From positions 310,001 to 374,000 of the forward strand of contig QPGO01000061.1 in the NCBI GenBank assembly GCA_008632985.1: a stretch of 64,000 nt of DNA, in the 5' to 3' direction. A program made the position numbers and the translations under genes. The stretch's first letter is position 1, and each line of letters opens with the position of its first letter. Positions 9,430 to 58,230 of the stretch are shown here, in pieces. The notes beneath the pieces were generated by a model, which was not told where the DNA came from, ran no database searches, and saw only the letters and a list, made by a program, of their open reading frames with translations. This DNA comes from Psammoneis japonica (lineage: Eukaryota).

Positions 9430-11550
9430 CAGTGGTTGTTGTTGACGACACTGAGACGACACACGCCATGTGTTCTGATTCAAGAGCCACCAGCAGTCTT
9501 TAGCAGTAATCTTGCTGCTGGCTGCTGCCTTTCAAGTGTTCTTCTTGCCAACAGCTGGAAAGCGTTCTTTGCAAGCAGGCCACCAAACCACGACACCAAT
9601 TGTCAACTCCACATGTCACACTCCATCCTGCAGGATTCCACTGTGGAGCATGCACAATCTCTGCCACAAGAACAAGACACCATCTTCATGGTTGCATGCA
9701 GCGCAGCAGGAGACCCCATCTTGTTCCACACAGCTGTGCAGCAGTTGGCGGCACACCACCCTTGTGGGGATGGGCTCCCGTGCTTGCCCCACTCTGGTGA
9801 TCCCCATCACAACTCTTCCAAAATCTCAATGTCAACACACTGACCTGGAATGGTTGGAAAAACCTTGACTTGGTTGAGAGCATCGAGTTGCTGGCTCCGC
9901 CTGCCAGAGCCGACTCTGTGGCAAAAACGAAGTTCCCCGTGCAATCACACCATTTCCACCTTTGCTTGCAAGCAGAGTCCAAGGCAAAGACTGCCAGCCA
10001 GCATCCAATCCATTGATTGTTCCCAAACAGGTTCCTCAAACATTTGCATCTCACCCCACTGCCCAAAGAAATCGTTTCACATGGCTTGCCTCCTTGGCGC
10101 CAAAGTTCCCATCAGCAAGCAAATGCCAAAGACACCAACAAGAAGCAAGACACAGCTTTCTCCCGCTGGAAACAGGATCTTGGTGAGATTGGACTTGGAG
10201 ATGACCCATCCATGGATGACCTCACTGTCTCCCAATTGCGCCGAACCCTTGGAGCCTTTGCAGCAGCAGCTGCCAGGGAAGGCAGAGACACTCCTCCAAA
10301 CGACTCAACATGCTGGTGGCAGGGGCCATCAGCACTGCCACAGATGATGTGGCATTGGCATTCAGGATTTGCAACAGGAAAAATCCACAACTTGACAAAG
10401 ATTGGCAAGCATCTTGCCTTCTGTTGTGGCACCAATGCTGAGGATGCAAGAACCAAGACGGTCAACAGAAACGACAAAAAGTGATCACAGCCACACTCCT
10501 CTGAGTCCTTGCCAGAAACTGTGTGACCTGCAAAGACACAGCCACAACATCAGCAATGCAGCAATCCTGCAAATGCTCCAAGACTGCTGGCAGTTGATGA
10601 GCCAAGCTGCTGACACTCAAGAGTCTCAGCTTCTTTTTCAAGATGGCAGAGAACTCTCACTTTCAGACCCAGACTTGGCCTCAGCAGACATGACATCCAT
10701 TGTGATCACTTTGACTGTGTCATGTGCTGTCTGCACCAATTGCAAGCTGTGGAGCCTGCAATCATCCACCATCCTGTCTGAGATGAGAGTGGCAGGAACA
10801 GCAATCAGAAAGTGGCATTTTGAATTTGGGGTGTGTGAAGCACACAAAATTGGAGCCCATTCCATTTGATCAGGAGCAGCAGTTGAAATGTGTCTCAACA
10901 ACACACCTGTGCATTCCGTCATGTTGGTTGGCATGTGGTCATTAGATGCCTTCCTTTTGCACATCCACAAACAAGTGCAACATTTCAGTGTCAGCATTTC
11001 ATCCCGCATGATCAAACACCAACACTTCTTCACAATCCCAGACTCCAATGCAGAAGATCCAAGAGCAAGAAATCACCATGAAGTCCAAGCCACTCACAAC
11101 AACAATGGCCCATGTCAAGTGCAACTCATGTCTGCAAAACAAGGCATGGAGGCTTTACACTGCACCCTGCCATTCCTTTGAATGAGAGCAGCTCTCCTTT
11201 GTTCCTCAGATTGGCAATCTTCTTGGCTGCCTCAGCTTTTTTTGTCAACAGCCAGGCAACTTTTTTCTTGTGCCAGGTTGCTGAAAGATGCTCCAGCTGA
11301 GTCTGGCAAAATGTTGATTTGTTGGCATTGAAGTTGTGTCTGTTTCTTGAGATTGTTGTCATCATCTTTTGATTTATGACTGAACAAAAGAGAGTGGCAA
11401 GTGGAAAAACCCTGTCCTTGTTGGTGTGCCAGACCCCACTGTGATGTGGCACCCCTTTTTGATCAGCACGTTTGACCCTCAACCAATGATGAGTGCACCC
11501 AAGCTGAACAGCAACTTGTTACCCAAGCCCATCACCACCTCACACGCGAC
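9430..11550 (+). mobile_element. Heavily mutated relic of a tyrosine-recombinase (DIRS/Ngaro-like) retroelement
   Basis: IGAHSI*SGAAVEMCLNNTPVHSVMLVGMWSLDAFLLHIHKQV (10850-10980) matches the YR C-terminal H-S-x-R...GRWxSDAFxxYIR pattern; the block is almost free of TpA and CpG. Boundaries approximate. Confidence 0.7.
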
Positions 11551-13600: not shown

Positions 13601-13932
13601 GATGCGGAGTTTTTACAGCTCTGAGTGACACAAACGTAGTCTTCCTTTCTCGAATTGCTATTTGCTCTTCTTTTTTGGAACGATTGATTTCATGGGATTC
13701 CAAAGATATTTTCCGGGTACCTATTTGATTTGGAATACATTCATCAACGAGGATGTTGAATGTTAAAAATCTTTCAACGCTGTCAACCTCAACGCAAGCC
13801 AGAAGCTGCATACAGCATGCGTTTTAGACTACGTGATGTTATCCGCTGTCGAAAGTCGAAAGATATGATGCCCGGCCGAGCGAAGAGGGAGCCAGGGGAG
13901 TCTATCGCAAATTCGCAAAGTTGGAAGTAGCC

Positions 13933-15306: not shown

Positions 15307-15399
15307 GTGTTTCCAAATAAGTTCCTAACTTCATATGCATAGTCACGACGACACATAAAATTGATAGCGAGAAGTTGTCACCTGTTCTCTGATGCCTAA

Positions 15400-18300
15400 G
15401 GTCGGAGATGTTGTCCTGCATGAGTGCTGATGATGACGATGTTGTCATGCGGTTTGTCTTGAGGCGGACTCCATTCAATGCAAGTCGTGTCGAATGCCTT
15501 TTTGTCGATTATTTTGGACTTCACCCAAGTTTTCTCTTGTGCTGGCTGGAAGCTGCACTTGCTCAAACAAAGAACAACGACCTTTCTGTTGCACTTGTCG
15601 GCCATTTTTCGGTTTAACGCAGTGTTTTGGCTTTTGTGTTTGGGCGGAGGATGTGGTGTGTTTTCTGTTTGTGAGTGCAACTCTCAAGGTCACAAAACTT
15701 TTAATGTGTCACAGCACATGATGGCGTTAAGAACAACAAGATGGTCAATGAAGCTGCCAAATGCCATGCTGCTCAGTTCTGTGCCACAATGCCAGACACT
15801 GCCCCCCTCATGCAGGACGTTTCTTCTCCAAACAGTTGCAGGTCACTGGCACTTAGAGTGTCCTCGACAAATGAGAGAGTTCAGTCAGTTGGCTCTTCTC
15901 TTTCTTGTCTTGAGCAATGAAAATTTGCACCAAGGCAAATGCAGCATTGCTGCTCACAATGGCAAGTTGGAGAAGCAGATTCTGCCAAAGGATTCTGCTG
16001 CCCTTGCTGACTCAAGTGGTGGGCAGCTCACCTTTCTTGCCAAACACCTTCTCCTTGACCGGACATGCGCTGCCTTGTGCCACAACTTCTGCAGGATGAT
16101 TTTCTGCTGCCAATCTCATTGAAAAGTTGCCAGGGTGTTCTCAGTCTTCTTGCTGCCAGCCTGGCTTGGCTGCCAGCTGCTCACTGTTCTCATTGTGAAC
16201 CCTGCTGGTTTGTGGTGCAAAATGCTTTCTTTTTTTTTTCACAGAAGCTTGGTTCAAGTGCCAGTGGTGGCCCAGCACTGGCCTGCTGCACAGGAGGGCT
16301 GGTGCTAGATGCAACATTGAGATGGAGGCCCCAGCACAGCCAACCAACATGGGAGCTTGCATTTGCCAGCTGGCTGCACTGCTTGTCAAATTAACAACAC
16401 ATCCACAATCTGTGGTTGCCTTGTTGATGCAGCTGTGCCACCAGGGTGGCCTGGCAACTCTTCTCTGGTGGACCCCAGCAAACTCCACAGAGAGAGAGAG
16501 AGAGAGTGGCAATCATTGAGGAGCTGATGCAGAACACTCCTGAGTGCATGAGAGCATGGGTGAACTACATTGGCATGGCAAGGAATTTGCACAGAAAAAA
16601 GTGCAAGGGGTGCAGCAACAGTTGGAGCATGAGCTTGGGCTCAATTGGCCTCAGAGAATGGACAATGACATTTGACATGTGGGGTGAAGTTCTGATTGTT
16701 TCATTTTTTCCCTGTCAAGTGACGGCTTTTGGGATGATGCTGAGTGACACAAACACCATTTGGTGGCATGGCAAGCGGCAATCTTTGAGTCACTCATTTG
16801 TTTGGTTGAAAAACTGGGTGCAGTCCAGCCACAATGATGCACCAACAGCTGCACAAAAGAGCTGCAAACTCTCTTCAATTCAGAAATCTACAAGAGCCAC
16901 TGGAAGGTGCTCCTCTGAGCTTGCGCTGGCAGAATGACAATGCTGAATGAGCACAAAACTTTGAGAAAGCTGGAGAGTTGAGAGAGATGCATTTTTTACA
17001 AGGACTTGCAATGTGTGCTCCTTGCACTCCTCATCAAATTTGTTGTGGCATCAGCATGACAGAAACCATGCCAAAGTCACAAAGATTAAAGCTGCAGCCC
17101 TCGTTGCTGGTCACTTTTCTTGGAGAGAACATGCCCCCAAATCCAGGCCCAAGAGCACACAGCAACTGGTGGCCCAGCTTTCAACATGCACACACACACA
17201 CACACACAGTGCCTGGGTGCCTGCTCTCTTGCTTGGTGGTCATGTGCCTTCTGGTCTCATGTCTGCAACAAGACTTCCTCTCAAGCACAAATCAGTCTGG
17301 AGCAATGTCAGCCACCAGCATGACAGAAAAGTTGGAGCAGCAGTGCCAGCCCCACAGGTGGCAAGTGCTGGTTGGCCTGGATGACTGTCACTTGTGAAGT
17401 CATGCTCTGATGCAGTCCTGTGGCATGTGATGTTTTGAGGGTGAGACATTCCAGCCAATTTTGCCTCTGTTGATTTTTGTTTTGGTTGACAAGCCACTTC
17501 CAACAATGTGCTCACACACCCACCACATTGCAGCCAGCATCCCCACCCTCACTTTGCTTGCCACTCCAAATGACACAACACTCTTGTTGTTTGTCCTCAC
17601 CTTGCATCTGGTCCTGGCTTCTTGTGATCCAGCCAAGAGAAAGCTGCAGCATCCTCACACACAGCTTTTTGCTGTTTGGGCCATGTTCAAAAAATGCACT
17701 TTGCAGAAAGAGCTCAACAAACACAGCTTGGTGCCCCTGCTGAAAGAAGGGTGAGCTGACCAGCACAGAAGAGGGAGTGGAGTGACAGTGCTGCAGCTGG
17801 GCCCTGTGCAAGGCTGTGTGCAGTCAGAAAGCCCAGAGCAGTGTGGCCTGCCAATGCCTTCAACCAAAAAATGACTTTGAGCCTTGACACCAGCTGTCTT
17901 CAATGAGTTGTTTTTACCCTTGTTTTCACTTGAGCAAACACTGTCTGCTTCAAACCAATCTTGAGCAGTTGAAAGGAAATCACACCTGCAACAACAAAAG
18001 GAGCAAGCTTGGAGTGTTCCAGGAAAGCACCAAGCAGGCCACCTGAGGTGCCGCTGTCCACAGTGCATCCAGGACAACAGCAGCACTCAGAAATCTAAGA
18101 ATTCACAACACAGCCACACCCAAAGTGGTGCAAATGAGAGCAGGAAAGAACTTGAGATTTTCCAGGTGAGAAGCACAAAAACTGATTTTTCCCCCCCTCC
18201 AACATGAACACCAGCTGATGGCTGCCTTCTCAGGAGGAGCAGCTGAAGGTGTGTTCCATTGTGCCACAGCAACCTTGAAGAAAAGAGCAGTTGTGTTCTG

Positions 18301-18689
18301 AGACAAAGGTGGGGGGTGGTCACCAGGTGCAGGTGGCACAGCAGCACTGACCATTGTTTTGACAATGATGTGCACAGAAGGCATTTGCCACATGGGGCAG
18401 CAAGTGCTTTGCCACCAACCAAGGACAACATTGTCAGAAATGATGATGCTTGCCCCCCAGCTTGTGCAAGCAGCAACAGGCAAGCTGTCCACAAATGAAG
18501 CCATCTGCTGTTTTGCACTTGCCCGTCTGTTTGTGATCAGCGCTGTTGCAAATGTTGCAATGAAACAAAGCCAGCAGCAGCAACAACAACCATGATTGTT
18601 CATTGCAGTCTCTGCTTTTTCTCAGTGCCATTGTTGGCAGTGCCCCATCTGTGAAAATGGGTGATGATTGCTGCATCATGGGAACCAAC
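15400..18689. other. Unidentified degenerate TpA/CpG-depleted block, left part (target of the Copia insertion)
   Basis: Roughly a dozen TpA in about 3.2 kb by hand count and few CpG; no recognisable domain; continues after the TSD at 25802. Confidence 0.6.
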
Positions 18690-18965
18690 TGACAGGATTT
18701 GAACAGGATTTGGATGCGCGCGAAGTGTCGCGCGCTGTTTAGTTTACCGCGCACAGTTTTGTGTGCTTTAGTTCCGCGCGTTCACGCGCGATGTAGTTTG
18801 CTTTCGAGCCACAAGGCTCACAAGAATAATAACAGTAGCCCGATTATACCGACTTACACGTCTTTCGGCTCCTGTAACGGTCTCTGAGCGGAGACTCATC
18901 TGCTATTTAGACAGCAGTAAGGAGTTATTGTTTGAATTCTTGCCATTTGCCTTCAATTTCTGTCA
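18690..18965 (+). repeat. 5' LTR
   Basis: TGACAGG...CTGTCA, 276 bp, 267/276 identical to the 3' LTR. Confidence 0.97.
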
Positions 18966-19912
18966 GATTAACAGTCTTGCTCATTGTCAACCCATTGAGC
19001 AACCGCCATCGTCGTCGGTGATTTACCAACGACGCTATTTCAATTCTACGTGGACCTCCGTATATATTCTACATACATCGGCAAGTCTACGCGCATTCAA
19101 TACCAGGGCATCGGCAGGAAGTTAACGTCACCGTCAAGTCTCCTTACCGCTGGATATCTGGATTGATTATACTACCTTTGATCGCTGAAGACTTATATTC
19201 AACGGTCATGTCCAAGTCTATCCTTGATCAACATCCCTTGGGTGCACCTGTTCCTCGGTCAACGGTCAAGAACCCTGCACATTCAAGGATCTTAGTCGCT
19301 GAAGACACATGCGCGCATGTGTGTGCATGTCTTCACGGCCAAGAACCTTTATCCACTCTTCGGACTGCGGTTTTGCTGCCACTCTACAAGCACACCGAGT
19401 CCATTGCACCTGATCCCACCCCGGACTGCTGGTGCTCCACAGTTCTGCTAGGTCCACGAGGACGACTGTGAGAGCAAGCAGCCGTGATTGCAGCCTGCGT
19501 TGGGGCGAGGGTGCTTTCCCGCGTTTGTTCGTTCGTCCACAGCGCCCAACGCCTGCGTCAACTGGCCAGCCTGATCGGGAAATCCAACCGACATAAAATG
19601 AGAACGGTTCGGGGGTCTTGTCCACCTCTGGTCAGCTTGCCTGCAGGGGTTTACAACCCGCCACTCTGCTTGCAAGCAACCCAAAGCGCCACCAGCTGCG
19701 GGTTCGGACGTGCCGGCACAACTCTACGGACCGGACAGGAAGTTTGGCACTTGACAACGAACGGGATGACAAAGCCCGGCAACTTCTGATTTTAAGATGG
19801 TTCAAGATTTCAAGTCAAGTCTGTTTCAAGTCAAGTCCATTCTCACCCAAGTTTCGAGTCTGCCTTCACTTCCCAACCAGAATTGACTGTCCTGACACCA
19901 CTTTTGTCTGCC

Positions 19913-22900
19913 ATGGTTCTCACTCGTCAGCAACAAACCGATGGTTTCGAGCACGTTGTTGGAACCGTGCTTGCCCAAGGTGCTGGGAGTCCTCTTCGTT
20001 TGGCTTTGGCCCAAGACGGCACGGACTCGCATCAGGAACTGTTCACGTTCATGCCGTCCCAAATCGACTCGCTTGAGTGCGACAACGGCACTGATGCAAT
20101 CCCTTTGCCCCGTGGTTGCAAGAACATGTCAGCAGCACCAGTTGGTCTGCACATTGTCAAAGCACACAAAGGTCTTGACGTTGCCAACGACTCCTCTTTG
20201 TTCACGCATGACGAGTTCCTTGCCCCGCCTCAGCCCCGACTGCATGTCTTCTGTGTCCATCGGCAGCTCACCCCTTGCACATCCACATGTCACCAACCAG
20301 ACCAAGGCACGCGACCCGGTGCGAGACTTCAAGCGAGGCATCAAGCGTGATCCCACCGCTTTCACGGCTCTCAAATCCGACAAGCAGCGGCACACTTGGC
20401 ACACCTCACTTGTGGCACAAGCCCATGCCCAAGACGTCGAGTGCATTCTAGACTCGTCGTACAAACCGACCAGCCCCGAAGACAAACTGCTCTTTGCTGA
20501 ACAGCAAAAGCACATGTTCGCCGTCTTCGAACGCATCCTTCTCACCGACAAGGGCAAGGCTCTCATTCGCGAAAATGTGGGGTCTTCTGACGCACAGACC
20601 GTCTGCCGCTCCTTGTCTGAGTGCGCGCTTGCCTCCACCCGCGCATCTGTCGAGTCCTCCACCCTGCTCACGCACCTCACCACCGCACGTCTTGGTGATG
20701 GCACTTGGAAAGGTCCGACCCACGGGTTCATCCTTCATTGGCAAGATCAGTTGCGCAAGTGCGAGGCACTCATCCCGGCCAGTGACCACTTCTCTGAAGG
20801 ACAGAAGCGCGTCATGCTCGAGAATGCCGTGCACCCTGTCGAGGAACTCCGTGCTGTCAAGAACCAAGCTGATCAGCATCGTACGCAGAGTGGCAAGAGC
20901 CTCACATGCGATCAATGCTGTGGCTTGCTCCTCTCCGCGGCAGCTCAGTGCGACAGCACGTTTCAACCCAAGACGACACCTCGAGCTCCCCGACGCGCCA
21001 CATGCGCACACGACGTCTGCTCCGAGGAACCGTCCGACGATGTGTTCTACGACATTGACAGCGACGTTGACGTCCTTCAAGCCAATGCTGCCTGCACCCG
21101 CGGTCCCAGCCTCACCGGTGTCCAATGGAGACGTCTCCCTCCCGACCACCAACGGCTCTGGGATTCGTTGCCCGATTCCTCCAAGGCGATCATCCTTGAG
21201 CATTCTCGTCCGCCTCCCCGCAACCCGCGAGCCAGCAACTGCCATGAGTCTGTTACGGCCAACCTTCACGACCAACACCTTGGGAGTGACGGTGATGTCA
21301 ACTTGTCCAACACGACTCCTGCTGACTGTGGTGACCCCGCTGCACATGTGGACGCCACTTCGGATAATCCCATCCTGGCGCACCTCACCAAGCGCAAGCC
21401 ACTGCCACCCGGTGATCTGCAACGTCTGTTGTCTCCTAACCAAGCCCCCAATGCCAGTCGACCGGGGCCATCCGCCGCTTCCTCTACCCCGCCAGCTTCT
21501 GCAGATGACATGGAACTTAACGGCCGCACTTGCCGCCGCGTCAACAACCACAATGTCATTTGCTCTGCCTCTGCTCATCGCTCCACACGCACTGGCGCTC
21601 TAGTCGATCGTGGGGCCAACGGCGGCATTGCTGGCGACGACGTTCGCGTCATTGCACGCACCTCTCGCCAAGTCGATGTTCAGGGCATTGACGATCATCA
21701 GTTGGTGGACATCCCCATTGTCACCGCTGGTGCCGTCATTGAGACCCAGCGTGGTCCCGTCATCGCCATCCTCCATCAGCACGCACACACGGGAAAGGGC
21801 AAGACCATCCATTCCTGCGGCCAGCTCGAATGGTGCAAACAGGATGTCAACGATCGCTCTGTCAAGGTGCCCAACGGCTTGCAACGCACTGCCACTCCTG
21901 ATGGCTATGTCATCCCCATTGACATCAAGGCTGGCCTGCCTCATGTTGCCATGCGACCTTACACTGACGCCGAATGGGACACCCTGCCCCATGTCATCCT
22001 CACCGGTGATGACACATGGGACCCTTCCGTCCTCGATCACTCTGTCACTGACGACGATCAGTGGTGCGACGCGATCTCTGACCTGCAGGACGATCCCACT
22101 GCCAACCTGTTTGACGAATGCGGCAACTGCCGTCACCGTGTCGTTGTCAACGAGACCATCTTGTCCGCTTCCTTGTCTGCCGATCACGCGTCCGCCCTCG
22201 ATGATCACCTCATTCCGAACGACGACGTGTTCTACGAGTGTCATCTGCATGCGATTGACCCCAAGGGCGATGACGTTCCACCTCCGGAGCGCACTGCACA
22301 GCCCAAGGACCCCCCTTCGAGTCTCTTCGGCCTTGCTTTGGCTTCCCACCTGCCGATGCGGTCCGTCGTACTTTTGACTGCACCACGCAGTGCGCCCGCA
22401 TGCCCGCCGGTGCACACCTTCGCAAGGCCTGCAAATCACCCAACCCCGCCCTCAATGTGCACCGCCGCAACGAGCCCATCGCCACTGACACCGTTCATGC
22501 CGACACCCCGGCCGTCGACTCTGGTTGCACCAGCGCCCAACTGTTTGTTGGCACCGAGTCTACCGTCACTGACGTCTACGGCACTAAGACGGACAAAGAG
22601 TTTGTCAACACACTCGAGGATCAGATCCGTGAACGTGGTGCCCCATCCAAACTCATTAGCGACCGTGCTCAAGTTGAGATCAGCAACAAAGTGCTCGGGA
22701 TCCTGCGCGCCCTCTTCATCTCCAGCTGGCAAAGTGAGCCTCACCAGCAACACCAAAACTTTGCCGAACGTCAACACCAGACCGTGAAGCGCATGGCGAA
22801 CACTGTCATGGACCGTTTTGGTTCGCCCCCCACACATGGCTGCTGGCGCTCATGCACGTGTGCTTCACACTCAACCACACAGCGTCCCCACGTCTCCACT

Positions 22901-25520
22901 GGCGCACGCCCCTCGAGACTCTCACTGGATCCACCCCGGACATCAGCCCATTGCTTCGCTTTCACTGGTGGGAACCAGTGCACTTCCACCTCGATGACTC
23001 CGATTGGCCGTCCGAATCCCGTGAGTTGCGTGGACGCTTCGTTGGCATTGCTGAGCACGTCGGCCACCAGATGACCTTCAAGATCTATCTGACGAGACTC
23101 AGAAGATCCTCTGCCGGTCCAACGTTCGCTCCGCCACCCCGATCCTGCCGTTCGAAACCTGCGTCTTGATCCTCCTGATGGGGAGCCACCTGAACCCATC
23201 ATCAAATCTCGCCATGACGACAACCCCGTCGATTCTCCTGATGGGGAGATCAGGACACCCAAGATGCCAGTTTTCGATCCGCAAGACATCATTGGACGTA
23301 CCTTCCTCATGCAGCCACAAGAGGATGGACAACGCCACAGAGCTCGCATCGTCAAGGCCGTTGAAGACCACGAATGGAAAGTGAACGGCAATCCTGAGCT
23401 CACTAAGTTCGTCTGCTCTGTCAACAATGACGAATACGAGGAAGTCCTTGCCCACAATGACATCATGAATCACATTGAGCGAGAAGACGAAGACACCACC
23501 ATTTGGAAATTTCGACGCATCGGTCACACGAAGGACCTCTGAAGCCTCACGACCCAACCTGGAAAGGCTCAAGCTACAACATCATGCTTGAATGGGAAAG
23601 TGGGGAGATCACGTCCGAGCCTCTTGCCATCATCGCCAAGGACGACCCCGTCACCTGTGCCATCTATGCACGAGAGAACGGACTCCTCGACACGGATGGC
23701 TGGAAGCGGTTCCGCACTATCGCGAGGCGCCAAAAGAAGCTATTTCGCATGGCCAACCAAGCCAAGCTTCGCTCCTTCCGCACTGCACCTCGCTACAAGT
23801 ACGGACACGAAGTTCCCCGGAACTACAAACACGCCATGTCACTAGACGAACGCAACGGCAACCGCAAGTGGGGAGACGCAACTAATCTCGAGTGGACCAA
23901 CTCACGAATACGAAGTCTTCCATGACTGCGGGCCCTTCAAGTCTTCCACTCCTCCTGCGGGACACAAGAAGATCCGAGTGCACCTGGTGTGCGACGTGAA
24001 ACACGACGGTCGCCACAAGGCACGACTCGTAGCCGACGGGCACCTCACGGACGTACCTGTCGACAGTGTCTACTCCGGAGCAGTCTCCCTCCGTGGCCTT
24101 CGGCTGATGATTTTCCTGGCCGAACTCAACGAGCTGGAGACATGGGCCACCGACATTGGCAATGCCTGCCTTGAAGCCACCACCAAGGAGAAGCTTTACA
24201 TTGTAGCTGGACCCGAATTTGGCAAACTCGAAGGACACATCCTTGTCATCCACAAGGCACTGCATGGACTGCGCAGCTCCGGTCTCCGCTGGCACGAGCG
24301 CTTCGCCGACTGCCTGCGAGCTGAAGGCTTCTTCCCCTGCCGCGCCGAACCCGACATTTGGATGCGCAGGAACGGCGACCACTGTGAATGCATTGCCGTT
24401 TATGTGGATGACCTCGCCATTGCCATGAAGGACCCTCAATCTTTCGTCGACACTCTCACGGAAAAGCACAAGTTCAAGCTCAAGGGCACGGGACCCATTG
24501 AGTTCCATCTGGGTTGCGACTTTTCTCGGGACCCCGACGGAACCTTGTGCCTGTCTCCGCGCAAGTACATCGAGCGCATGGTCGACAGCTGCGCCCGACT
24601 GTTTGGGGAGAAACCTGCCACCAACACCCTGTCACCTCTAGAGAAGGGTGACCACCCCGAACTGGACACTTCCGAACTGCTGGGATCCAATGGCATTCAC
24701 AAGTTCCAGTCTCTTGTTGGTTCACTCCAATGGGCAGTGTCCCTTGGTCGAATTGACATTGCCACGGCTGTCATGTCACTCTCTAGCTTCCGAGCTGCGC
24801 CCCGTCAAGGCCACTTGGATCGTGCCAAACGCGTCTGTGGGCACCTCTCCAAGATGCGACACGGTGCTCTCCGCGTTCGCACGGAAGAGCCCGACTGTTC
24901 GGATCTCCCTGCTCCGGCATGTGAATGGATGCATTCCGTGTGTGGTGAAGCAGAAGAGATGATCCCGAAGGACGCTCCACCGCCCCTTGGCAAGTTCGTC
25001 ACTGCCACCCACTACGTCGATGCAAACTTGTGCCATTGCATGCTCACCGGATGCTCTGTCATGGGAATGCTCCACTTCCTCAACAAATTCCCGGCTGATT
25101 GGTTCTCCAAGAAACAAGCCACCGTGGAGACTGCAACCTACGGATCTGAATTTGTTGCCGCAAGGAATTGTGTTGAGCAGATTGTCGACCTGCGCATCAC
25201 CCTGCGCTGCCTTGGCGTCCCGATCCGCAATGTTAGTTACATGTTCGGTGACAACAAGTCGGTTGCAGACAGTGCCACCATCCCGCACTCCAAGTTACAC
25301 AAGCGACACACCGCACTGTCGTTCCACCGTGTGCGTGAGGCAATTGCCTCTGGTTGCCTTGAGTTCCACTTCATCGAAGGCTCCCGCAACCCTGCTGACA
25401 TTCTCAGCAAGCATTGGGGTCACTCCCAAATCTGGGACCTTCTCCGCCCCCTCATGTTCTGGAACTTCATTCCATCCGAAGTCGAATCTGTTTCTGTGGC
25501 TCCTCAAGCAAACTGGGGAG
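19913..25520 (+). pseudogene. Copia gag-pol, frameshifted and Tyr-depleted
   Basis: gag FKRGIKRD; protease LVDRGANGG; integrase ATDTV..D, ISDRAQVE, SEPHQQHQN; RT KHDGRHKARLVA, YVDD; RNase H YVDANL, TYGSEF, FGDNKS, NPADILSK; several frameshifts. Confidence 0.95.
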
Positions 25521-25796
25521 TGACAGGATTTGAACAGGATTTGGATGCGCGCGAAGTGTCGCGCGCTGTTTAGTTTACCGCGCACAGTTTTGTGTGCTTT
25601 AGTTCCGCGCGTTCACGCGCGATGCAGTTTGCTTTCGAGCCACAAGGCTCACAAGAATAATGACAGTAGCCCGATTGTGCCGACTTGCACGTCTTTCGGC
25701 TCCTGCAACGGTCTCTGAGCGGAGACTCATCTGCCATTTAGACAGCAGCAAGGAGTCATTGTTTGAATTCTTGCCATTTGCCTTCAATTTCTGTCA
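25521..25796 (+). repeat. 3' LTR
   Basis: Copy of 18690-18965 with 9 substitutions, all at TpA sites. Confidence 0.97.
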
Positions 25797-25801
25797 CCAA
25801 C

Positions 25802-27480
25802 TTTTTGAGGGATGCAGGCTTTTGGGGTGTGCATCAGTGGAGAAGAAGGCTGCTCCATTTGTGGCCAGAACAAGCGCCATTGCAGCCCATGCTTTGGATG
25901 CTTTTTTGATTCTTTGAGCCCACAGAAGGTTTGGCAGTGCAGCTGCATGAGCCCCTGTTCCCTTTGGACCCACACAGGGTGAGATCTACCCAGACGCCAC
26001 TTGCATGCCCCAAAACTTTGACCCTGATGCTGAAAGAAACAATGACAGGAGAGCCAAGCTTGTGCCACTGAAAATCCCGCCAGCTGAGTTGACAATCCAC
26101 CCTGCATCTTTAAAATCCAGCAAGGGTGGCAACTTGACAGCAATGTGTGGCTGTGTGGACATGACCTTTGAAGTTGGCCCAGCACAAGATGGTGATTTGC
26201 GGCAGTTTTTCACTGATTTGAAGGGTGAGTTGTTGGCCAAAACATGCAAAAAGTCTTTGGACAGGGATGTCAAGGTTTCAAAGAAAGGCCAACACATGCA
26301 ATCTGAAGTTTTTGTGCAATGAATTTCAAAATGCAACAAGGAAGGAAGATGAGAAGACAGCTGTGACAGGCTGATCAAAGTCATTTGTGACAAGTGCTCT
26401 GCTTGAGTGCTTCAAAAACTTGAAGCACCAAAGCACAGCTGCCCCAGCCAAAGGAGAGGAGGCACAAACAAAAGTCCCACCCCCTCCAAAGGGAATCAAT
26501 GCCTGCAGCAATCACTGCCCCAGTGAATGAAGAAAGGTGCTGGCAGAGCCAACTTGAGCCTTCAAAGCAGTGCTGCTTCTGCATCAAGGAACCGACTCTT
26601 GCCTCAGACAAGCTTCTCAAGCTCAGGGCATGACTGCCCCCCCACTTTGAAGATGTGGTGCCTGCTGAGACTTCAGGAGCCATGACCAAAGACTTTTGCA
26701 CAACTGTGCACTTGAGCTGCTTGCCAATGAGTGCCATCATTGTGGGGTTCACTGCTGCAGCACCGACAGCTTTGCTCAAAGTTTCCAAGATGAAAACAAA
26801 CGCGGTGCTGCAAAAGAAACAAGGTTGGCTCTCATTTGCAAACACCCTGCAGCACCAAGACAAAAATGAAATGAACTTTGAGAATGACAAACTGATGAAC
26901 TTTGTTGAAACATTCTGTGCAGAGACCTCACAAAGCCAGCAGCTGGCTGTTGTTTGCCAACAGCAGCAAGCCCCCAAGAAGCATCAGAATTTGGGGAAAA
27001 GGCTTGCTCATGTTTTTTTTGACTCAGCACCCAGCTGCCACTGTCAACAATCACTGCCCAAGCTTCAAAATATGATGGCTGGAGCACCTCATGTCAGTGG
27101 ACAAGCTGAGTGGGCAAAGACCAAAATCCCGTCACAGACAGGGTGTTTGCCACCAGAGCCCGCCCCCCCCAAGAAGAGAAGCCTTCAAGTGTGGGAGCTG
27201 GCTGTGAAGTTCTTGTCAAAAAGGCAACAAGAAGCAAGCCCATTGACAAAAAGACCATTGAGAATCAAAGTGTTGCTGGCCTGTGTCCAGAGTTGCATGG
27301 CTGTTTTGCAGCAAACTTTGAACAAAAACTCTCGCACTGCTCTCAAAGTTTGCCAGTGCACACAGCACAGGAGTCCATGAGGAGCTCTCAGGATTTGTTC
27401 TTGTGATTTTCTCATGAAGAATGGAACAGGAAATCAGAAAATTGGTGAAAGGACCATTGAGATGCCACCCAGCAAAAAGT
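25802..27480. other. Unidentified degenerate TpA/CpG-depleted block, right part
   Basis: Same composition as 15400-18689 and contiguous with it across the TSD. Confidence 0.6.
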
Positions 27481-27795
27481 GACGCCGCCGGGATGCATCA
27501 TGGTGCCGCAGGTTTCATCGCTTGGATGGAAGGAGGTGTCTTTCTTGTGTTCGCGTCCGTTTGAATCAGGATTTTGGGGGCGGGTTCCCAACCCGGATAA
27601 CAAACGTTCCAAAAAAGATATTCCAAAGATCCATCAATTGCGACACAACATGTCGCTAATTCTTCGATGACGATGGCGGCGAAACACGAAATAGTAAGGC
27701 CAAGTCACAAAGCTCTCACAAGCCTAGAAATGACGAATGGTCCATGGAAGCACTGGTAAAGCCATCACAAAAGGCACTGCAAAAAAAAAAGCATC

Positions 27796-28389
27796 ATGAA
27801 GGTAATTTCTGGAGGTCAAACCGGCGCCGACCAGGCCGCGTTATTGGCGGCTCGACAAGTGGGCCTCGAGACGGGTGGCACCGCACCCGAAGGATTCCAA
27901 ACCGAACGAGGCCCCATGCTGGAACTCCGTGATGTCTATGGTCTCTCTGCAGAAGGAACGTGCCAGAGTCGAACCATAAAGAATGTTAATGACTCGGATG
28001 GCACCGTGGTTCTGCTTGTGCATGATGGATCGGACGGTAGTTCCAAAACCATTGGATGGGCAAGCAAGCGGTGCTGGGAGGACTCCTTTGAATCGAAATT
28101 TCAAGGCGGGCATCGACCTGTGCTGGTGTTGCATGCGGAGAATTTGGAGGAGGATCAGCTGTCTGAATCTGCCCTGAAAATTGTGGAGTTTGTGCGACGA
28201 TTCAACATTGGTACGCTCAATGTTGCCGGCCATCGACAGTCGGGTGCGTTTATTCCGCCATTCTACACGGGAAAAGCACCCTACGACTACCAACAACGCT
28301 GTTTTGATCTGTTGCTTCTTGCCTTCAAGTCACTTGTTAGAAACGACGAGGACGAGAGAAGCGAGAGGAAGAATGATGGAGCGGATTGA
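27796..28389 (+). CDS. Circularly permuted YpsA-type SLOG protein (the 'putative molybdenum carrier' family)
   Basis: ISGGQTGADQAAL..GG.AP.G...E.G, RT.KNV.DSDGT and LNVAGHR motifs. Confidence 0.85.
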   Translation: MKVISGGQTGADQAALLAARQVGLETGGTAPEGFQTERGPMLELRDVYGLSAEGTCQSRTIKNVNDSDGTVVLLVHDGSDGSSKTIGWASKRCWEDSFESKFQGGHRPVLVLHAENLEEDQLSESALKIVEFVRRFNIGTLNVAGHRQSGAFIPPFYTGKAPYDYQQRCFDLLLLAFKSLVRNDEDERSERKNDGAD

Positions 28390-29197
28390 GTTCCCCACTA
28401 TGCTATTCAACGAGGTTAACAATTGACGGTGTTGTATCGACATGGCACCACCACCAGCTGGTGCACCTTATGAACTATGCACCCGCAGTCAAACTCTGCG
28501 TCGGTCATGAATGAAAATGCCAACAAGTCGAAAAATGACATTATTATTACGTCGAAATAACCCGTTACTTATTGATGCAGGATGCAGGCGAGATTACTTG
28601 TTGTGACGTGAAATGACGTTCAAATCTGTTTTCCAAACCAGAGGAAGGCACGATGAGCATAAACGATAATATCCAGACCTCTTGCACGCAGTTTCAATAT
28701 GCGTATCGGACAGACAGCTACGGTCAAGGCAAGACTCGAAGGCGCACAAGTTTGCGTGCACAGAAACTCGACTCTCGCAAGCATTATATTACGAGATGAT
28801 GTAAAGAATGGGAATCTTTTGTAACTGGCGATGAACCTCGATAGTTGGACAAAGACGAAACGAAAACCACCAAGCAGAAAGGATGAAACCGACTGGGAAC
28901 GTGCGATATCTTTCGCGAAGAATGCTATTGTACCGTAGGTTCTTTCAGGAAAAGGTAAGGACAAAACTTTGTGCAGCAAACACCAGAAATTAGTGTCATG
29001 AATGATTATACTGTAAAGAAATGACTTGGCTAATATTTTAAGACCAAGAATGCTTTTTTTTCCCAAAGGGAGTTGGTGATCACGTGTATGAAGACTGTGC
29101 ATTTGCTTTGTAAGCAAGAAAAATAACATTGTTCTTGCAGCTTTCAAGTCGTCGGTTGTGCTGAGGGAGTGGTTCAGGGAGCTTCCAACGGCGCTGT

Positions 29198-55869: not shown

Positions 55870-58230
55870 CGACAATGGTTGGGCCATGGCAGCCGCCGGC
55901 TCAGGGCTGTTATATATTTCTATTCAAGTGTGACATCGCAATGGACACGTGCTCTATACTGGGCTGCGTTTGAGCTTGACGGCATCTACAGTGGAACTTG
56001 AAGTGTTGTTGCAGTGGGCAGCATTGGATCAATTAAAAAGTGGGTAAAGTTGCAATGTCCCAAAACAACAAAAGTACAACAGGATGGATTAAATGAAGAG
56101 CCCATTGCTGGGACAGATCCAAGTGTCTCTTTTGGGAAGATCCATGTCATTGTCAGAGGATGGAAGCATTGTCAGTGTTGGCTCATTGGGGAGTGATGCC
56201 AATGGATTGTCTGACTCCAGTGAGCAAATGACAAACTAAATGTGAACAGTGTTGTGGAAAAGAGGTGCTTTTAAAGCCAAGCAAAGAAGATGTGTCTGCA
56301 GACAGGAAGTGTTGTGCGCACCGCATTGCTCCCATCATGTCACCGGGGGGGGGGTGACCAACTGATGTGGTCATGAGTGGAAAGGGTTGCCAAAAATGAT
56401 TTGAAGAAGAAGCAAGAATGGGCTGAGAGTCATTTGTCAATTGTTGCTCACAGCTGGGCCATGTTCATGAGAAGAAAGAGTCTGCTTCTGCTGGGAAAAG
56501 TGACAACAAAACAGTTGAGCAGGGGGGAAGCAGGAGGTGCTTTGGTGCACTGCCCAACTCCTCTGCAGACAACATGTGTGCAAAAGTGCTCCACAACATT
56601 TGGACACCCTCAGTGCAACACCAGTGACTGGCTCTGGGTCCAACAAACTACAGTTGTCCATCAAGGCTGCACAGCCCAAAAAATCAGCACCTTTGTTCAT
56701 TTTCAGCACCTTTAAAAAAGATCCAGCACCATTTCAAAAACAGAGCACCTTCAAATGCACTTGTTTTTCACACATGTTTTGTGAGAAATTGACTGAAATT
56801 AGCCACATTGTTGCCAAATTGTGACTCATCTGTGGAAAAACAGTCCTGTTTGTTGAATGCAATGGATGAGCTCCAGTGTCCAAGTCTCACATTTTGATGC
56901 TGGAGTGCCTCCGTTGCATTTGACGAACAGCATTTGTGCGATTGTTGTGTTGTTGTTCCATTGGGTGCTGTGTGCAGGCAGTGGCTTGGAATTTGTCAGA
57001 ATGCAGAAAGTTTTCAAGGTGCTGAAAATTTAAAAAAAAAGCAATGACATGATTTTCTTTTGAAGCAATGATTTTTAAAGGTGCCAAGTGCAAATTTGTC
57101 ATTTGCAGCCACTCCTGCAACTCCAGCTCCCTCTGGCAAGGTAAAACTTCAAGTGGTTCTTTTGGCAATTTTGTGTCCTTGTCTTGTGATGGCAGTGTCA
57201 TGGCTGTCAGAGCAAACAATCAATGGTCCTCTTCTTCCAAGCCCTGCTGTGCTGTGTTGTTGTGCAATGATGCAATCCAATTGCCCAACAATGGACGCAG
57301 TTTGGCCAAGAATTTGTTGGACAAGCCAGCGGCAGTGCTTTTGGTGAGTCTGTTTCATCAAATTGCAGTGGCACAATTCTTGCAGTTGGAGCTGATGAAA
57401 ATGAAAGTGGCAGAGTGAATGCCAGCCATGTCCAGGTGTTTGAACACAACTCAGCATTGAATTGTTGTTTGGTCCAACTTGGTGGTGACATTGTTTGACA
57501 AGATGCTGGTGTGATGAATTTGGTTTTTCTGCACTGCTCTTGGACACGGGAGACATTCTCTTGCTGTGGGAGCTCATTTGGATGACATGGAAAATGACAC
57601 CCAGATGACCATGGCTTCTCATCCCGAAGCTAACTTGGACAAAACACTCACCAGCCAAGCCAACAACTGCACTGGGTTTCCCATTTCCTTGAATTCACAG
57701 GGAACCACCATCAGCATTGAAAGGGATGCAGGTCAAGCATTGGCACACAGTGCAACACTGCATTGTCAAAATGGCAAATTGTGGATGATTGGCTTTTCTC
57801 TTGATGACAGCACCTTGATTGTGGCTGCAGGTGCATGCAGAGACAACAAGAGAGTTCTTGCTGTTTGTGCAACTGCTCAACATTGAAATGGAGTGAATGT
57901 GGCCAAACATTTTGACACAACAGTCTGACAATGGTTTTGGGTGGTCAGTGTCATTGAGTGGCAATGGAAACGTCTTGGTGGTTGGCAGTTGTTGGCATGA
58001 CATCAATGGACTGGTCCATGTGGGTCAAGTTTGAATCTTTCAGCATGACAGGGCAATGCAGATGAAGGAAGCAAGTTGAAGATCCTCTAAATGGTGAGAC
58101 TGAAGACAATGGTTCAGGTGTTCTGTGTCCTTGTAGAACGACGGAAGCATTGTTGGAGTTGGTTCACGGGGGGCTGACGTCAACGGTGACAAGTCTGGAT
58201 CTGTGTGAGAATTGTATTTTGCATTTCATC
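55870..58230 (+). pseudogene. Degenerate, TpA/CpG-depleted paralog(s) of the FG-GAP propeller region
   Basis: 55915-55955 nearly matches 55430-55470; relics FGNFVSLSCDGSVMAV, FGWSVSLSGNGNVLVVG and DGSIVGVG...NGDKSGSV. Confidence 0.75.

What the first reader, a model, noticed from the sequence alone, without database searches (positions are those of the whole stretch)
18690..25796. Reverse-RIP-like hypermutation: all 9 LTR-LTR differences are TpA to TpG/CpA
Seen by hand alignment: the 5' LTR has 15 TpA. Nine are changed in the 3' LTR: A>G at 25662, 25677, 25679, 25687 and T>C at 25625, 25706, 25735, 25749, 25757. There are no other differences and about 21 CpG are all intact. Established: LTRs are identical at insertion, fungal RIP makes CpA>TpA, and 5mC decay makes CpG>TpG; neither fits once protein evidence fixes the direction. 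Inference: a DNA-level, both-strand A>G mutator specific for TpA acts on repeats, possibly an undescribed genome-defence system. Candidates are a TadA/ADAT-like DNA adenine deaminase, a mutagenic A/T modification, or Pol-eta-type error-prone patch repair (known for A>G at WA). No responsible enzyme gene is recognisable in this window.
Basis: partly seen in the sequence, partly recalled or inferred. Interest (0 to 1): 0.95.

Follow-up and report, generated by a model that had tools for sequence, protein, structure and literature searches.

The report
TpA-to-TpG/CpA hypermutation in a diatom genome
A diatom-type retrotransposon and several neighbouring DNA blocks have had nearly every TA dinucleotide changed to TG or CA, which looks like an undescribed mutation process running opposite to fungal RIP.

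Summary
Two 276-nt LTRs with a CCAAC target-site duplication differ at 9 sites. All 9 are TA in the 5' LTR and TG (4) or CA (5) in the 3' LTR, and all 21 CpG are intact.

The direction is TA>TG/CA. In the element's own reading frames, 18 of 32 conserved Tyr are now Cys or His. None of 25 conserved His has become Tyr. Other genomic copies still carry TAT where this copy has TGT.

It is very unlikely to be an assembly artefact. Read-derived contigs reproduce the neighbouring TA-free blocks. Three metagenome contigs of related Copia elements show the same pairing of TA loss with Tyr>Cys/His; the other 77 do not.

The finding is larger than reported. Four sharply bounded blocks (about 9.5-11.5, 15.65-18.69, 25.8-27.5 and 56.0-58.1 kb) have lost nearly all TA and nearly all CG. 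One lies inside an FG-GAP repeat array with normal flanks, so the change happened in place.

Both strands are hit about equally, without strand runs. The enzyme is unknown. Seven literature searches found no precedent.

The parts
18685..18689 (+). Target-site duplication CCAAC, 5' copy
18690..18965 (+). 5' LTR, 276 nt, 15 TA and 21 CG; this is the unmutated state
18966..19200 (+). Leader after the 5' LTR. TA density is normal to high (9 per 100 bp). Together with the 5' LTR it forms a spared island of about 510 bp.
19201..25520 (+). Element interior with TA nearly gone (0-2 per 100 bp from 19200; 50 TA in 6021 bp counted over 19500-25520) and CG normal. Several frames on both strands are open because TAA and TAG have been removed.
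19896..22787 (+). Gag-protease open frame (963 codons). It has no Pfam hit but is 40-50% identical to diatom Copia polyproteins. Of 16 conserved Tyr, 7 are now Cys and 2 are now His.
23846..25570 (+). RT/RNase H open frame (Pfam RVT_2, E 6e-26). Of 16 conserved Tyr, 6 are now Cys and 3 are now His. Also two Val>Ala (GTA>GCA) and one Ile>Met (ATA>ATG).
25521..25796 (+). 3' LTR. 9 of its 15 TA sites are changed: TG at 25662, 25677, 25679, 25687; CA at 25625, 25706, 25735, 25749, 25757.
25797..25801 (+). Target-site duplication CCAAC, 3' copy
9500..11500 (.). Block A. TA is 0-2 per 500 bp throughout. CG is partly lost in the first half (8-10 per 500) and nearly gone in the second (1-2 per 500).
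   Evidence: reproduced in read contigs
15650..18689 (.). Block B. TA and CG are each 0-3 per 500 bp and TG+CA is about 115 per 500 bp. It ends exactly at the LTR insertion site.
   Evidence: read contig 16230-18683 with 6 differences
25797..27500 (.). Block C, the continuation of block B on the other side of the element. B and C were one older block of about 4.8 kb that the insertion split.
   Evidence: read contig 25796-28500 with 3 differences
55990..58100 (+). Block D, a TA- and CG-free stretch inside a tandem FG-GAP repeat array. It is frameshifted. Normal repeat copies lie on both sides (up to 55746 and from 58112).

Best explanation
A heritable, DNA-level hypermutation acts in place on delimited chromosomal domains of this diatom-type genome. 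It converts 5'-TA-3' into TG or CA, an A:T>G:C transition on either strand. The LTR pair caught it part-way. The interior and 3' LTR of one copy of a very abundant Copia family are mutated: about 85% of interior TA and 9 of 15 TA in the 3' LTR. The 5' LTR and about 235 bp of leader are spared. Older domains (blocks A-D) have also lost their CpG, most simply by ordinary 5-methylcytosine decay or a second activity. SHOWN: the pattern; its direction; that both strands are hit about equally without strand runs; that it is copy-specific; that it is fast relative to background (no other LTR difference); that it occurs in place in non-retroelement DNA; that related elements in other assemblies show it. 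INFERRED (my commitment, about 0.45 for the full mechanism): the chemical step is enzymatic deamination of adenine to hypoxanthine at TpA, read as G at the next replication. The enzyme would be recruited to silenced or transcribed-repeat chromatin. It shows a mild preference for A and against G two bases 5' of the edited A. Sparing of the first 300-500 bp downstream of the LTR promoter, with both strands hit further downstream, resembles the topography of AID-driven somatic hypermutation. That suggests access through transcription-opened DNA. The narrower claim, that this is a real in-place TA>TG/CA hypermutation, I put at about 0.85.
For: Pattern: 9 of 9 LTR differences are of this type (P 6e-10). 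Direction: 18 of 32 conserved Tyr are now Cys or His, while conserved His is kept at 25 of 25 and Cys at 3 of 3 (Fisher P 1.6e-4 for the RT part alone). Also GTA>GCA twice and ATA>ATG once. Other genomic copies carry TAT at codon 366 (place 24942, 17 contigs) where the window has TGT. Copy-specific: 13 of the 22 listed variant places inside the element are TA against TG/CA, in both senses. At 22981/22982 the same 7 contigs read TG where the window reads CA. Read support: contigs of run X1 at word depth about 56 cover blocks A, B and C with 0-8 differences. Depth there equals depth in the flanks, whereas a heterozygous indel at 12141 sits at 28.8 of 62. Independent assemblies: L078 has 3 TA in 2766 bp and 11 of 16 conserved Tyr changed; L056 has 6 of 14; L072 has 5 of 16. 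The other 77 of 80 loci have 0-1. ENA protein P0074 has 7 of 19 changed, against 0-2 in the other 119. In place: block D has both borders inside a homologous FG-GAP repeat array. Both strands: 19 TG and 25 CA among 44 events. TG and CA counts are 352 and 360 in block B and 178 and 183 in block C, and a runs test shows no excess clustering compared with normal DNA. Context: in the interior, TA preceded by A (ATAN) survives at 0.00-0.14 of the reference density, against 0.14-0.41 for other contexts. In the blocks, TTAA, CTAA and GTAA make up 24 of the 32 survivors. G at position -2 is disfavoured, 19 against 8 informative sites (P 0.05). AA is not targeted (Lys kept at 16 of 17 columns).
Against: No enzyme, inosine or modified base has been observed, so the deaminase step is pure inference. 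No naturally occurring DNA adenine deaminase is known to me (recalled). The lack of strand-coordinated runs (7 runs among 12 ordered RT events, counted by hand) differs from processive single-strand deaminases such as APOBEC, ADAR and RIP. It would fit site-by-site events on duplex DNA, or a mutagenic mark, equally well. Blocks A-C are single-copy at 80% likeness or more, so a repeat trigger is not shown. Sparing of the 5' LTR and leader is unexplained and could equally come from gene conversion by an unmutated copy. The direction for the LTR sites themselves is inferred from the adjoining interior, not from an outgroup LTR: one search lists only 40 of 442 variant places, and none lies in an LTR. 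Run X1 comes from one sample, which may be the assembly's own source, and its platform is not on record.
Confidence: 0.45

Rival explanations
1. Mark-driven decay. Silent domains carry a TpA-specific base modification, either an oxidised or otherwise modified thymine or a modified adenine. It miscodes at replication or repair, so TA decays to CA/TG in the way 5mCpG decays to TpG/CpA. Mutation would then be a by-product of an epigenetic mark and not the purpose of an editing enzyme.
For: Both self-complementary pyrimidine-purine dinucleotides (TA and CG) vanish in the same sharply bounded domains. Events are independent site by site and symmetric between strands, as expected for a symmetric mark. 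From recall only: dinoflagellate DNA carries 5-hydroxymethyluracil preferentially at TpA and TpC, and 5-formyluracil can mispair with G.
Against: Speed. About 85% of interior TA is lost, yet there is no other substitution in 552 nt of LTR and no CpG loss in the element. By my own rough estimate that requires a rate hundreds of times above background, far more than 5mC decay achieves. TA loss and CG loss are also uncoupled: the element and L078 lose TA but keep CG. No such modification is reported for diatoms in the papers I searched.
Confidence: 0.22
2. Editing before integration. A deaminase packaged with the retrotransposon edits its RNA and/or cDNA at U/T-A during reverse transcription, in the manner of APOBEC3 on retroviruses. 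The copy would then arrive already mutated.
For: The topography matches a cDNA single-strand exposure gradient. The 5' LTR and the leader next to the primer-binding site are spared, the interior is heavily hit, and the 3' LTR is hit independently. The CA (T>C) share rises from 5' to 3': 3 of 12 in gag-protease, 5 of 12 in RT, 5 of 9 in the 3' LTR. That trend is not significant. Hypermutation is specific to each copy.
Against: Both A>G and T>C occur in every copy. Changes made in RNA U3 or early minus-strand U3 would be copied into both LTRs, yet 4 A>G changes are private to the 3' LTR. This model cannot explain block D, which is mutated in place inside a gene's repeat array, nor blocks A-C, which have no retroelement features.
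Confidence: 0.1
3. Conventional polarity. The 3' LTR is ancestral, and the 5' LTR plus leader suffered RIP-like CpA>TpA (TpG>TpA) mutation.
For: A pairwise LTR comparison cannot give direction by itself. The 5' LTR and leader are TA-rich (34 TA in about 510 bp). Many diatoms encode DNMT4 enzymes related to fungal RID (passages of PMC9998398).
Against: The same element's coding region shows the opposite polarity. Conserved Tyr is lost to Cys or His at 18 of 32 columns. None of 25 conserved His and none of 3 conserved Cys has become Tyr, and no TAA or TAG stops are created. The mutated DNA is GC-enriched and TA-free, not AT-rich. This reading would need two opposite processes acting in one element.
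Confidence: 0.03
4. Technical artefact: miscalling of modified bases or mis-polishing of a high-copy repeat in a long-read assembly.
For: The window carries homopolymer-length errors relative to read contigs (12334, 22309, 23136), so it probably derives from long reads. The LTR sequences themselves are not bridged by any read contig.
Against: k-mer contigs of run X1 (word depth about 56) reproduce blocks A-C almost exactly, while disagreeing with the window at homopolymers. They are therefore not copies of the assembly. The same signature, tied to Tyr>Cys/His, appears in three unrelated metagenome contigs and one ENA protein. Polishing with multi-mapped reads would make the two LTRs alike, not different.
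Confidence: 0.05

Closest known systems
Repeat-induced point mutation (RIP) of Neurospora and other fungi
   Same: A DNA-level hypermutation of mobile-element copies that acts in place and is dinucleotide-specific. It hits both strands, can approach saturation, has sharp domain borders and inactivates coding capacity.
   Different: The chemistry and polarity are opposite. RIP makes C:G>T:A (CpA>TpA) and AT-rich, stop-rich DNA. Here A:T>G:C (TpA>TpG/CpA) makes GC-richer DNA without TAA or TAG stops. RIP tracts are strand-coordinated, but no strand runs are seen here. A repeat trigger is not shown, since blocks A-C are single-copy.
APOBEC3 G>A hypermutation of retroviruses and LTR retrotransposons
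   Same: Individual retroelement copies are hypermutated in a fixed dinucleotide context, with a spared region near the 5' end.
   Different: APOBEC3 deaminates cytosine on minus-strand cDNA only, giving one-strand G>A. Here the change is A:T>G:C on both strands, and it also occurs in non-retroelement DNA in place.
ADAR or ADAT/TadA-type adenosine deamination (RNA hyperediting; U-A context of TadA/ADAT, recalled)
   Same: The outcome is A>G, and a 5' U/T neighbour is preferred.
   Different: Those enzymes act on RNA. Only sense-strand A>G could be inherited through reverse transcription. Here T>C is equally common, and a chromosomal gene segment is affected. A 3' C, the tRNA-like UAC context, is not required: ATAT and ATAA are the most depleted contexts.
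5-methylcytosine decay (CpG>TpG/CpA) in methylated transposons
   Same: The end products are the same (TG/CA), and a self-complementary dinucleotide is targeted on both strands. It very likely accounts for the CG loss in blocks A-D and in loci such as L005 and L049.
   Different: It cannot change TA. In the element all CpG are intact while TA is nearly gone.
AID-driven somatic hypermutation
   Same: Both strands are hit and the domain is bounded. It starts a few hundred bp downstream of a promoter, and the promoter-proximal part is spared.
   Different: AID deaminates C at WRC hotspots at low density. Here TA is hit near saturation and the change is in the germline: depth in the blocks equals depth in the flanks.
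Very-short-patch repair bias in E. coli (T:G>C:G, CTAG depletion; recalled)
   Same: It is a known way for T>C changes at TA-containing words to accumulate.
   Different: It is a slow genome-wide bias tied to one methylase site. It is not a domain-limited, saturating change at all TA.

Membership tests
Ty1/copia LTR retrotransposon (diatom Copia lineage) | Two direct LTRs with TG...CA ends and a short target-site duplication | tested here: met
   276-nt LTRs and a 5-bp CCAAC duplication
Ty1/copia LTR retrotransposon (diatom Copia lineage) | Copia-type reverse transcriptase (Pfam RVT_2) with diatom relatives | tested here: met
   RVT_2 at E 6e-26. Relatives at 63-70% identity include a record named Cylindrotheca fusiformis. 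The gag-protease part matches records named Nitzschia inconspicua and Nitzschia sp..
Ty1/copia LTR retrotransposon (diatom Copia lineage) | Integrase (rve) domain between protease and RT | tested here: inconclusive
   No Pfam hit in any frame over 22274-23925. The region is frameshifted, and other copies carry extra bases at 22309, 22828, 23083, 23136, 23522 and 23903.
RIP (fungal repeat-induced point mutation) | C:G>T:A transitions, typically CpA>TpA, giving AT-rich, TpA-rich DNA | tested here: not met
   The polarity is the reverse. TA is depleted to 0.06-0.22 of expectation and GC is raised.
RIP (fungal repeat-induced point mutation) | Triggered by sequence duplication; all copies above a length threshold are hit | tested here: inconclusive
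   The Copia family is very abundant (14581 contigs laid). But blocks A-C have no second copy at 80% likeness or more, and the 5' LTR is spared while its twin is hit.
RIP (fungal repeat-induced point mutation) | Premeiotic timing and dependence on a RID/DNMT4-type enzyme | not testable with these tools
   No genome is held for this window. Diatom DNMT4 is reported as related to RID, with unknown function (passages of PMC9998398).
APOBEC-type cDNA editing | Single-strand bias (plus-strand G>A only), confined to reverse-transcribed DNA | tested here: not met
   The changes are A>G and T>C, 19 against 25. Block D is mutated in place inside a gene array.
ADAR-type hyperediting fixed by retrotransposition | A>G on the sense strand only, in clusters | tested here: not met
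   Every hypermutated copy except L072 carries both TG and CA outcomes. L072 has 5 of 5 CA. There is no run clustering.
5mC-deamination decay | Loss of CpG to TpG/CpA | tested here: not met
   For the LTR and element changes: 21 of 21 CpG are intact and interior CG is at 0.8-1.0 of expectation. The feature is met only for the additional CG loss in blocks A-D.
Pol-eta-type WA mutagenesis | A>G at both TA and AA, at low density | tested here: not met
   AA codons are unaffected (Lys 16 of 17, Asn 6 of 8 with the two exceptions at a frame edge). TA loss approaches saturation.
TadA/ADAT-like deaminase acting on DNA | Presence of the enzyme; hypoxanthine in DNA; T-A-C context preference | not testable with these tools
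   No deaminase gene is in the window. The only hit, DYW_deaminase at 16 bits with E 0.0096, is below cut-off, lies in a Cys/His-rich translation of block A, and shows no catalytic His-x-Glu motif (motif recalled). The context test is mixed: the chosen strand has C at +1 in 21 of 44 events against 10 of 44 for the other strand, but ATAT and ATAA are the most depleted contexts.

The most novel reading that the evidence does not exclude
Diatoms possess a dedicated, previously undescribed genome-defence or heterochromatin-linked mutator. It edits duplex or transcription-opened DNA specifically at TpA, changing A:T to G:C on either strand. It would be a natural DNA adenine editor (or an equally specific thymine-modifying system) working with polarity opposite to RIP. 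It inactivates transposons by erasing Tyr, Ile and Val codons and TATA-type motifs while removing stop codons and raising GC content.
Probability: 0.5. Interest if true: 0.95.

Novelty: categorically new. Interest (0 to 1): 0.88.

Why it matters
All known natural hypermutation systems that act on DNA deaminate cytosine: RIP, AID/APOBEC and the bacterial DddA-type toxins. Natural A:T>G:C hypermutation of chromosomal DNA has, to my knowledge and in seven full-text searches, not been described.

If an enzyme lies behind it, it would be the first natural DNA adenine editor, or a new mutagenic base modification. That bears directly on base-editing technology.

It would give a major phytoplankton group a transposon-control mechanism that nobody has looked for. 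It would explain GC-rich, stop-free, Cys/His-rich pseudo-ORFs that gene finders will call as proteins.

It would also mean that LTR-divergence dating and dinucleotide-based repeat screens, such as RIP indices, mis-read diatom genomes. The question is directly testable, because partly mutated copies and polymorphic sites exist in the sampled strain.

Tried and rejected
1. Whole-genome tally of LTR pairs: not possible, because no genome is held for this window.
2. Outgroup polarisation of the nine LTR sites: one search lists 40 of 442 variant places and none lies in an LTR.
3. Nucleotide-level polarisation with close relatives: none of the 80 metagenome loci exceeds 70% nucleotide identity to the window element or to L078, L056 or L072.
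5. Expression: no RNA holder was listed. Run X2 covers only 12103-15371 and 27660-28500 at high, uneven depth and gives no cover of the blocks. I draw no conclusion from this.
6. Identity of blocks A-C: 35 open frames scanned against Pfam gave only sub-threshold hits (PHD-1st_NSD 16.9 bits, DYW_deaminase 16.2 bits, Herpes_LMP2 14.2 bits). I reject these as Cys/His composition noise after reading the translations. tblastx against the rest of the window found nothing for A-C.
7. Strand-coordinated tracts: runs tests and TG-CA dispersion in the blocks and interior do not differ from normal DNA. The LTR order (C, GGGG, CCCC; 3 runs, P about 0.07 by hand count) is not significant.
8. GC-biased gene conversion: rejected, because only TA is affected and not A or T in other contexts.
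9. A genome-wide neutral bias: rejected, because non-coding stretches outside the blocks keep 13-37 TA per 500 bp.
10. Earlier findings of this scan: none, by place or by words.
11. Literature. (full-text searches) returned nothing on TpA>TpG hypermutation in diatoms or other algae. Maumus et al. 2009 (PMC2806351) has no occurrence of RIP, hypermut, dinucleotide or deaminat (term search only). The SPLASH preprint (PMC9258296) and PMC4504042 were checked by passages and are irrelevant. Subscription-only papers are not covered.
12. Taxon from a host gene: the DUF2235 gene gave mostly unnamed metagenome hits, and all the named ones were bacterial. The diatom assignment therefore rests on the named Copia relatives.


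Full report
1. THE OBSERVATION
The region 18690-25796 is one LTR retrotransposon. The repeat finder gives two 276-nt direct repeats at 18690-18965 and 25521-25796. They begin with TG and end with CA, and are flanked by the 5-bp duplication CCAAC. They differ at nine positions, without gaps. All nine are TA in the 5' LTR and TG (four) or CA (five) in the 3' LTR. TA falls from 15 to 6, and CG stays at 21 in both. The chance that nine random differences all fall in the 30 TA positions of 276 is 6e-10. The chance that all nine derived states lie on one LTR is 0.004.

2. THE ELEMENT
Pfam finds a Copia-type reverse transcriptase (RVT_2, E 6e-26) in the frame 23846-25570. A 963-codon frame at 19896-22787 has no Pfam hit. 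It is nevertheless 40-50% identical to polyproteins that include records named Nitzschia inconspicua and Nitzschia sp.. The RT part is 63-70% identical to 120 listed relatives, one of them named Cylindrotheca fusiformis. The host genes in the window have a eukaryotic look: a TLC ATP/ADP transporter, cNMP-dependent kinases, and FG-GAP and PT repeat proteins. I therefore treat the window as a pennate-diatom-type genome. This assignment rests only on those names.

3. DIRECTION OF CHANGE
I aligned the RT/RNase H frame with 78 relatives.
- The window copy differs at 32 of 318 columns that are at least 80% conserved.
- Nine of these differences are Tyr>Cys (6) or Tyr>His (3), so 9 of 16 conserved Tyr are lost.
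- There are also two Val>Ala (GTA>GCA) and one Ile>Met (ATA>ATG).
- All 16 conserved His and all 3 conserved Cys are kept.

In the gag-protease frame (60 relatives), 16 conserved Tyr give 7 Cys and 2 His with only 3 kept. All 9 conserved His are kept.

RIP-like CpA>TpA would do the opposite: His, Cys, Gln and Trp would become Tyr or stop codons. Lys and Asn (AA-containing) codons are untouched.

The same polarity shows inside the genome. At place 24942, 17 read contigs carry A, giving TAT (Tyr, the conserved residue), where the window has TGT.

4. IS IT REAL DNA?
No whole genome is held. One run, X1, holds 0.90 of the sampled words of 9001-19000. Its contigs, at word depth about 56, cover:
- 9263-10137 with 0 differences;
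- 10131-11796 with 1 difference;
- 12241-16239 with 8;
- 16230-18683 with 6;
- 25796-28500 with 3.

These contigs disagree with the window at homopolymers; for example they have two extra C at 12334, as does run X2. They are therefore not a copy of the assembly, and the assembly probably stems from long reads. The platform of X1 is not on record, and it comes from a single sample, which may be the source of the assembly.

Independent support comes from elsewhere. Among 80 metagenome loci that encode relatives, the three with the lowest TA odds ratio are exactly the three with many Tyr>Cys/His changes. L078 has 3 TA in 2766 bp and 11 of 16 Tyr changed. L056 has 6 of 14 changed. L072 has 5 of 16 changed. 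The other 77 loci have 0 or 1. One ENA protein, P0074, has 7 of 19 changed, against 0-2 in 119 others. The scan's peptide patterns include a Tyr that is mutated in the window copy, so hypermutated copies are probably under-sampled.

5. THE FINDING IS LARGER THAN REPORTED
A 500-bp tally and a 100-bp tally show four sharply bounded blocks in which both TA and CG are almost absent (0-3 each per 500 bp, against about 19 and 27 elsewhere). TG+CA rises there to 105-125 per 500 bp.
- A: about 9500-11500.
- B: about 15650-18689.
- C: 25797 to about 27500.
- D: about 55990-58100.

The sequence is complex, not simple repeats. B and C abut the element's target-site duplication. They were therefore one older block of about 4.8 kb into which the element inserted.

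The element differs from the blocks. Its interior from about 19200 to the 3' LTR has lost TA (50 TA in 6021 bp, 16% of the density in 77 unmutated relatives). It keeps normal CG (odds ratio 0.8-1.0). The first half of block A, and L078, also show TA loss with only partial CG loss. TA loss is therefore a separate and faster process. CG loss looks like the familiar decay of methylated CpG, which also occurs alone in other loci such as L005 and L049 (CG odds ratio 0.2, TA normal).

6. THE CHANGE HAPPENS IN PLACE
Block D is not a retroelement. It is a frameshifted stretch of the tandem FG-GAP repeats of the gene at 51335-55780. Normal repeat copies lie upstream (to 55746) and downstream (58112-58186). 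Copies inside the block show CG>CA/TG and TA>TG/CA against them. In the aligned unit, 10 of 13 CG and 4 of 10 TA of the normal copy are TG/CA in the block copy. The block copy has no CG at all there and 3 TA, none of them opposite a TG/CA of the normal copy. Both borders of the mutated domain fall inside homologous sequence, so the DNA was changed where it lies.

Depth in blocks A-C (56-63) equals depth in the flanks (54-58). A heterozygous indel sits at half depth. The state is therefore fixed in the germline of the sampled strain.

7. PROPERTIES OF THE PROCESS
(a) Specificity. Only TA is affected. Survival depends on the neighbours. TA preceded by A (ATAT, ATAC, ATAA, ATAG) survives at 0.00-0.14 of the reference density. 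Other contexts survive at 0.14-0.41. In the saturated blocks, TTAA, CTAA and GTAA make up 24 of the 32 survivors.

(b) Strands. Among 44 polarised events (35 codon-based in four hypermutated copies, plus 9 in the LTR), 19 are TG and 25 are CA. The edited A tends not to have G two bases upstream: 19 against 8 informative sites, P 0.05. Adding the gag-protease events gives, for the window element, 20 TG and 13 CA (my addition).

(c) No strand runs. TG and CA are balanced in B (352 and 360) and C (178 and 183). Runs tests do not differ from normal DNA.

(d) Copy-specific. The family is very abundant: 14581 contigs were laid, with summed depth about a thousand-fold above the flanks, which is not a copy number. 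Its copies differ mainly by transitions, 365 against 68 transversion places. Of the 22 listed places inside the element:
- 13 are TA against TG/CA. In 7 the window keeps TA and in 6 others keep it.
- 4 are CG against TG/CA.
- 5 are other changes.
At 22981/22982 the same seven contigs read TG where the window reads CA. That means two independent hits on one ancestral dinucleotide.

(e) Speed. There is no other difference in 2 x 276 nt of LTR and no CpG loss, while about 85% of interior TA is gone. By my rough estimate the rate is hundreds of times above background.

(f) Topography. The 5' LTR and about 235 bp of leader (18690 to about 19200) are an untouched island in a 12-kb stretch that is otherwise TA-free.

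(g) Consequences. TAA and TAG vanish, so long open frames appear in several frames and on both strands. GC rises to 55-59%, against about 48%. A TATA-like word in the LTR (GATTATACC) becomes GATTGTGCC.

8. MECHANISM
Shown: a real, in-place, TA-specific A:T>G:C hypermutation that hits both strands and is limited to domains.

Inferred: the chemical step. I commit to enzymatic deamination of adenine at TpA in DNA, read as G, at about 0.45. The reasons are the strict one-base outcome, the neighbour preference typical of base-flipping enzymes, the burst-like speed, and the independence from CpG loss. The spared promoter-proximal island followed by a domain hit on both strands recalls AID-type, transcription-opened access. 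That is a lead, not a result.

The main rival, at 0.22, is a mutagenic TpA-specific base modification in silent chromatin. Symmetry, site-by-site independence and co-occurrence with CpG decay favour it. Speed and the uncoupling from CG loss count against it.

Editing of RNA or cDNA before integration, at 0.10, fits the 5' to 3' topography and a weak, non-significant rise of T>C towards the 3' end (3 of 12, 5 of 12, 5 of 9). It fails on the A>G changes private to the 3' LTR and on block D.

RIP-like polarity (0.03) and artefact (0.05) are nearly excluded. The spared 5' island could also be a gene-conversion tract from an unmutated copy; I could not test this.

9. COMPARISON WITH KNOWN SYSTEMS
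It works like RIP in logic: mobile DNA is mutated in place, in a dinucleotide context, to saturation. It fails RIP's defining chemistry, and a repeat trigger is not shown, since blocks A-C are single-copy at 80% likeness or more.

It is not APOBEC-like, because both strands are hit and the change is not confined to cDNA. It is not ADAR-like, because T>C is equally common and chromosomal DNA is affected. It is not 5mC decay. It is not Pol-eta WA mutagenesis, because AA is spared and TA loss is near saturation.

Diatom DNMT4 enzymes related to fungal RID exist and have no known function (passages of PMC9998398). They might bear on the CG component but not on TA.

10. NOVELTY
Seven full-text searches and term searches in the main diatom retrotransposon paper (PMC2806351) found no description of TpA>TpG/CpA hypermutation in diatoms or any alga. 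Papers outside the library, and supplements, were not seen. I rate it categorically new, with the caveat that the mechanism is unknown.

11. LIMITS
- The direction at the nine LTR sites is inferred from the adjoining interior, not from outgroup LTRs.
- The LTR sequences rest on one assembly.
- Part of the frameshifts may be assembly errors at C-runs.
- No enzyme gene is in the window.

Noticed in passing
window 9500-11500, 15650-18689, 25797-27500, 55990-58100: Four sharply bounded blocks almost free of both TA and CG, with a TG/CA excess. They are complex sequence, not simple repeats. Read contigs reproduce blocks A-C; block D lay outside the stretch laid on reads (9001-28500). They have become part of the main finding.
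   Followed up: yes
window 51335-58190: The FG-GAP repeat gene (1481-codon frame, stop at 55780) continues as repeat units downstream: an unmutated stretch at 55873-55990, then hypermutated and frameshifted units (block D), then a normal-looking unit again at 58112-58186. The gene seems truncated by the mutated domain.
   Followed up: partly
window 13837-15306 (+): An intact 489-codon DUF2235 / T6SS_Tle1-like hydrolase gene. The best relative is 64% identical (unnamed, JGI). The rest are around 48% identical and mostly unnamed; the named ones among them are all bacterial (Alphaproteobacteria and Gammaproteobacteria). This may be a horizontal acquisition.
   Followed up: partly
window 12334, 22309, 23136 and other C-runs: Read contigs of X1 (and, at 12334, also X2) carry one or two more bases than the window in homopolymers. 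The window probably comes from an incompletely polished long-read assembly, so some frameshifts in the element may not be real.
   Followed up: partly
window 12103-15371 and 27660-28500: Run X2, labelled 'DNA?', covers only genic stretches at very high and uneven depth (400-1300). It behaves like an RNA library.
   Followed up: no
window 19896-25570, both strands: Many overlapping open frames of 200-960 codons in several frames and on both strands. This is a side effect of the loss of TAA and TAG. Gene finders would call them as Cys/His-rich proteins, as apparently happened for P0074.
   Followed up: partly
window 10396-10866 (+): Sub-threshold Pfam hit to DYW_deaminase (16.2 bits, E 0.0096, cut-off 24) in a translation of block A. 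No catalytic His-x-Glu motif (motif recalled) is visible. I judge it to be composition noise.
   Followed up: yes
window 27760-28389 (+): A gene of the circularly permuted YpsA SLOG family (E 2e-26) lies directly beside block C. I see no link to the finding.
   Followed up: no
window 52867-54000: Long tandem array with a 24/48-nt period (35 or more copies) inside the FG-GAP gene. It is GC-rich and has normal TA and CG.
   Followed up: no
window 16306, 16590, 17096, 25875, 26896: Inside blocks B and C the window and the X1 contigs differ at 11 listed places. Five of these are TA or CG against TG/CA, in both senses. The process, or its CpG part, may still be segregating in the strain.
   Followed up: partly
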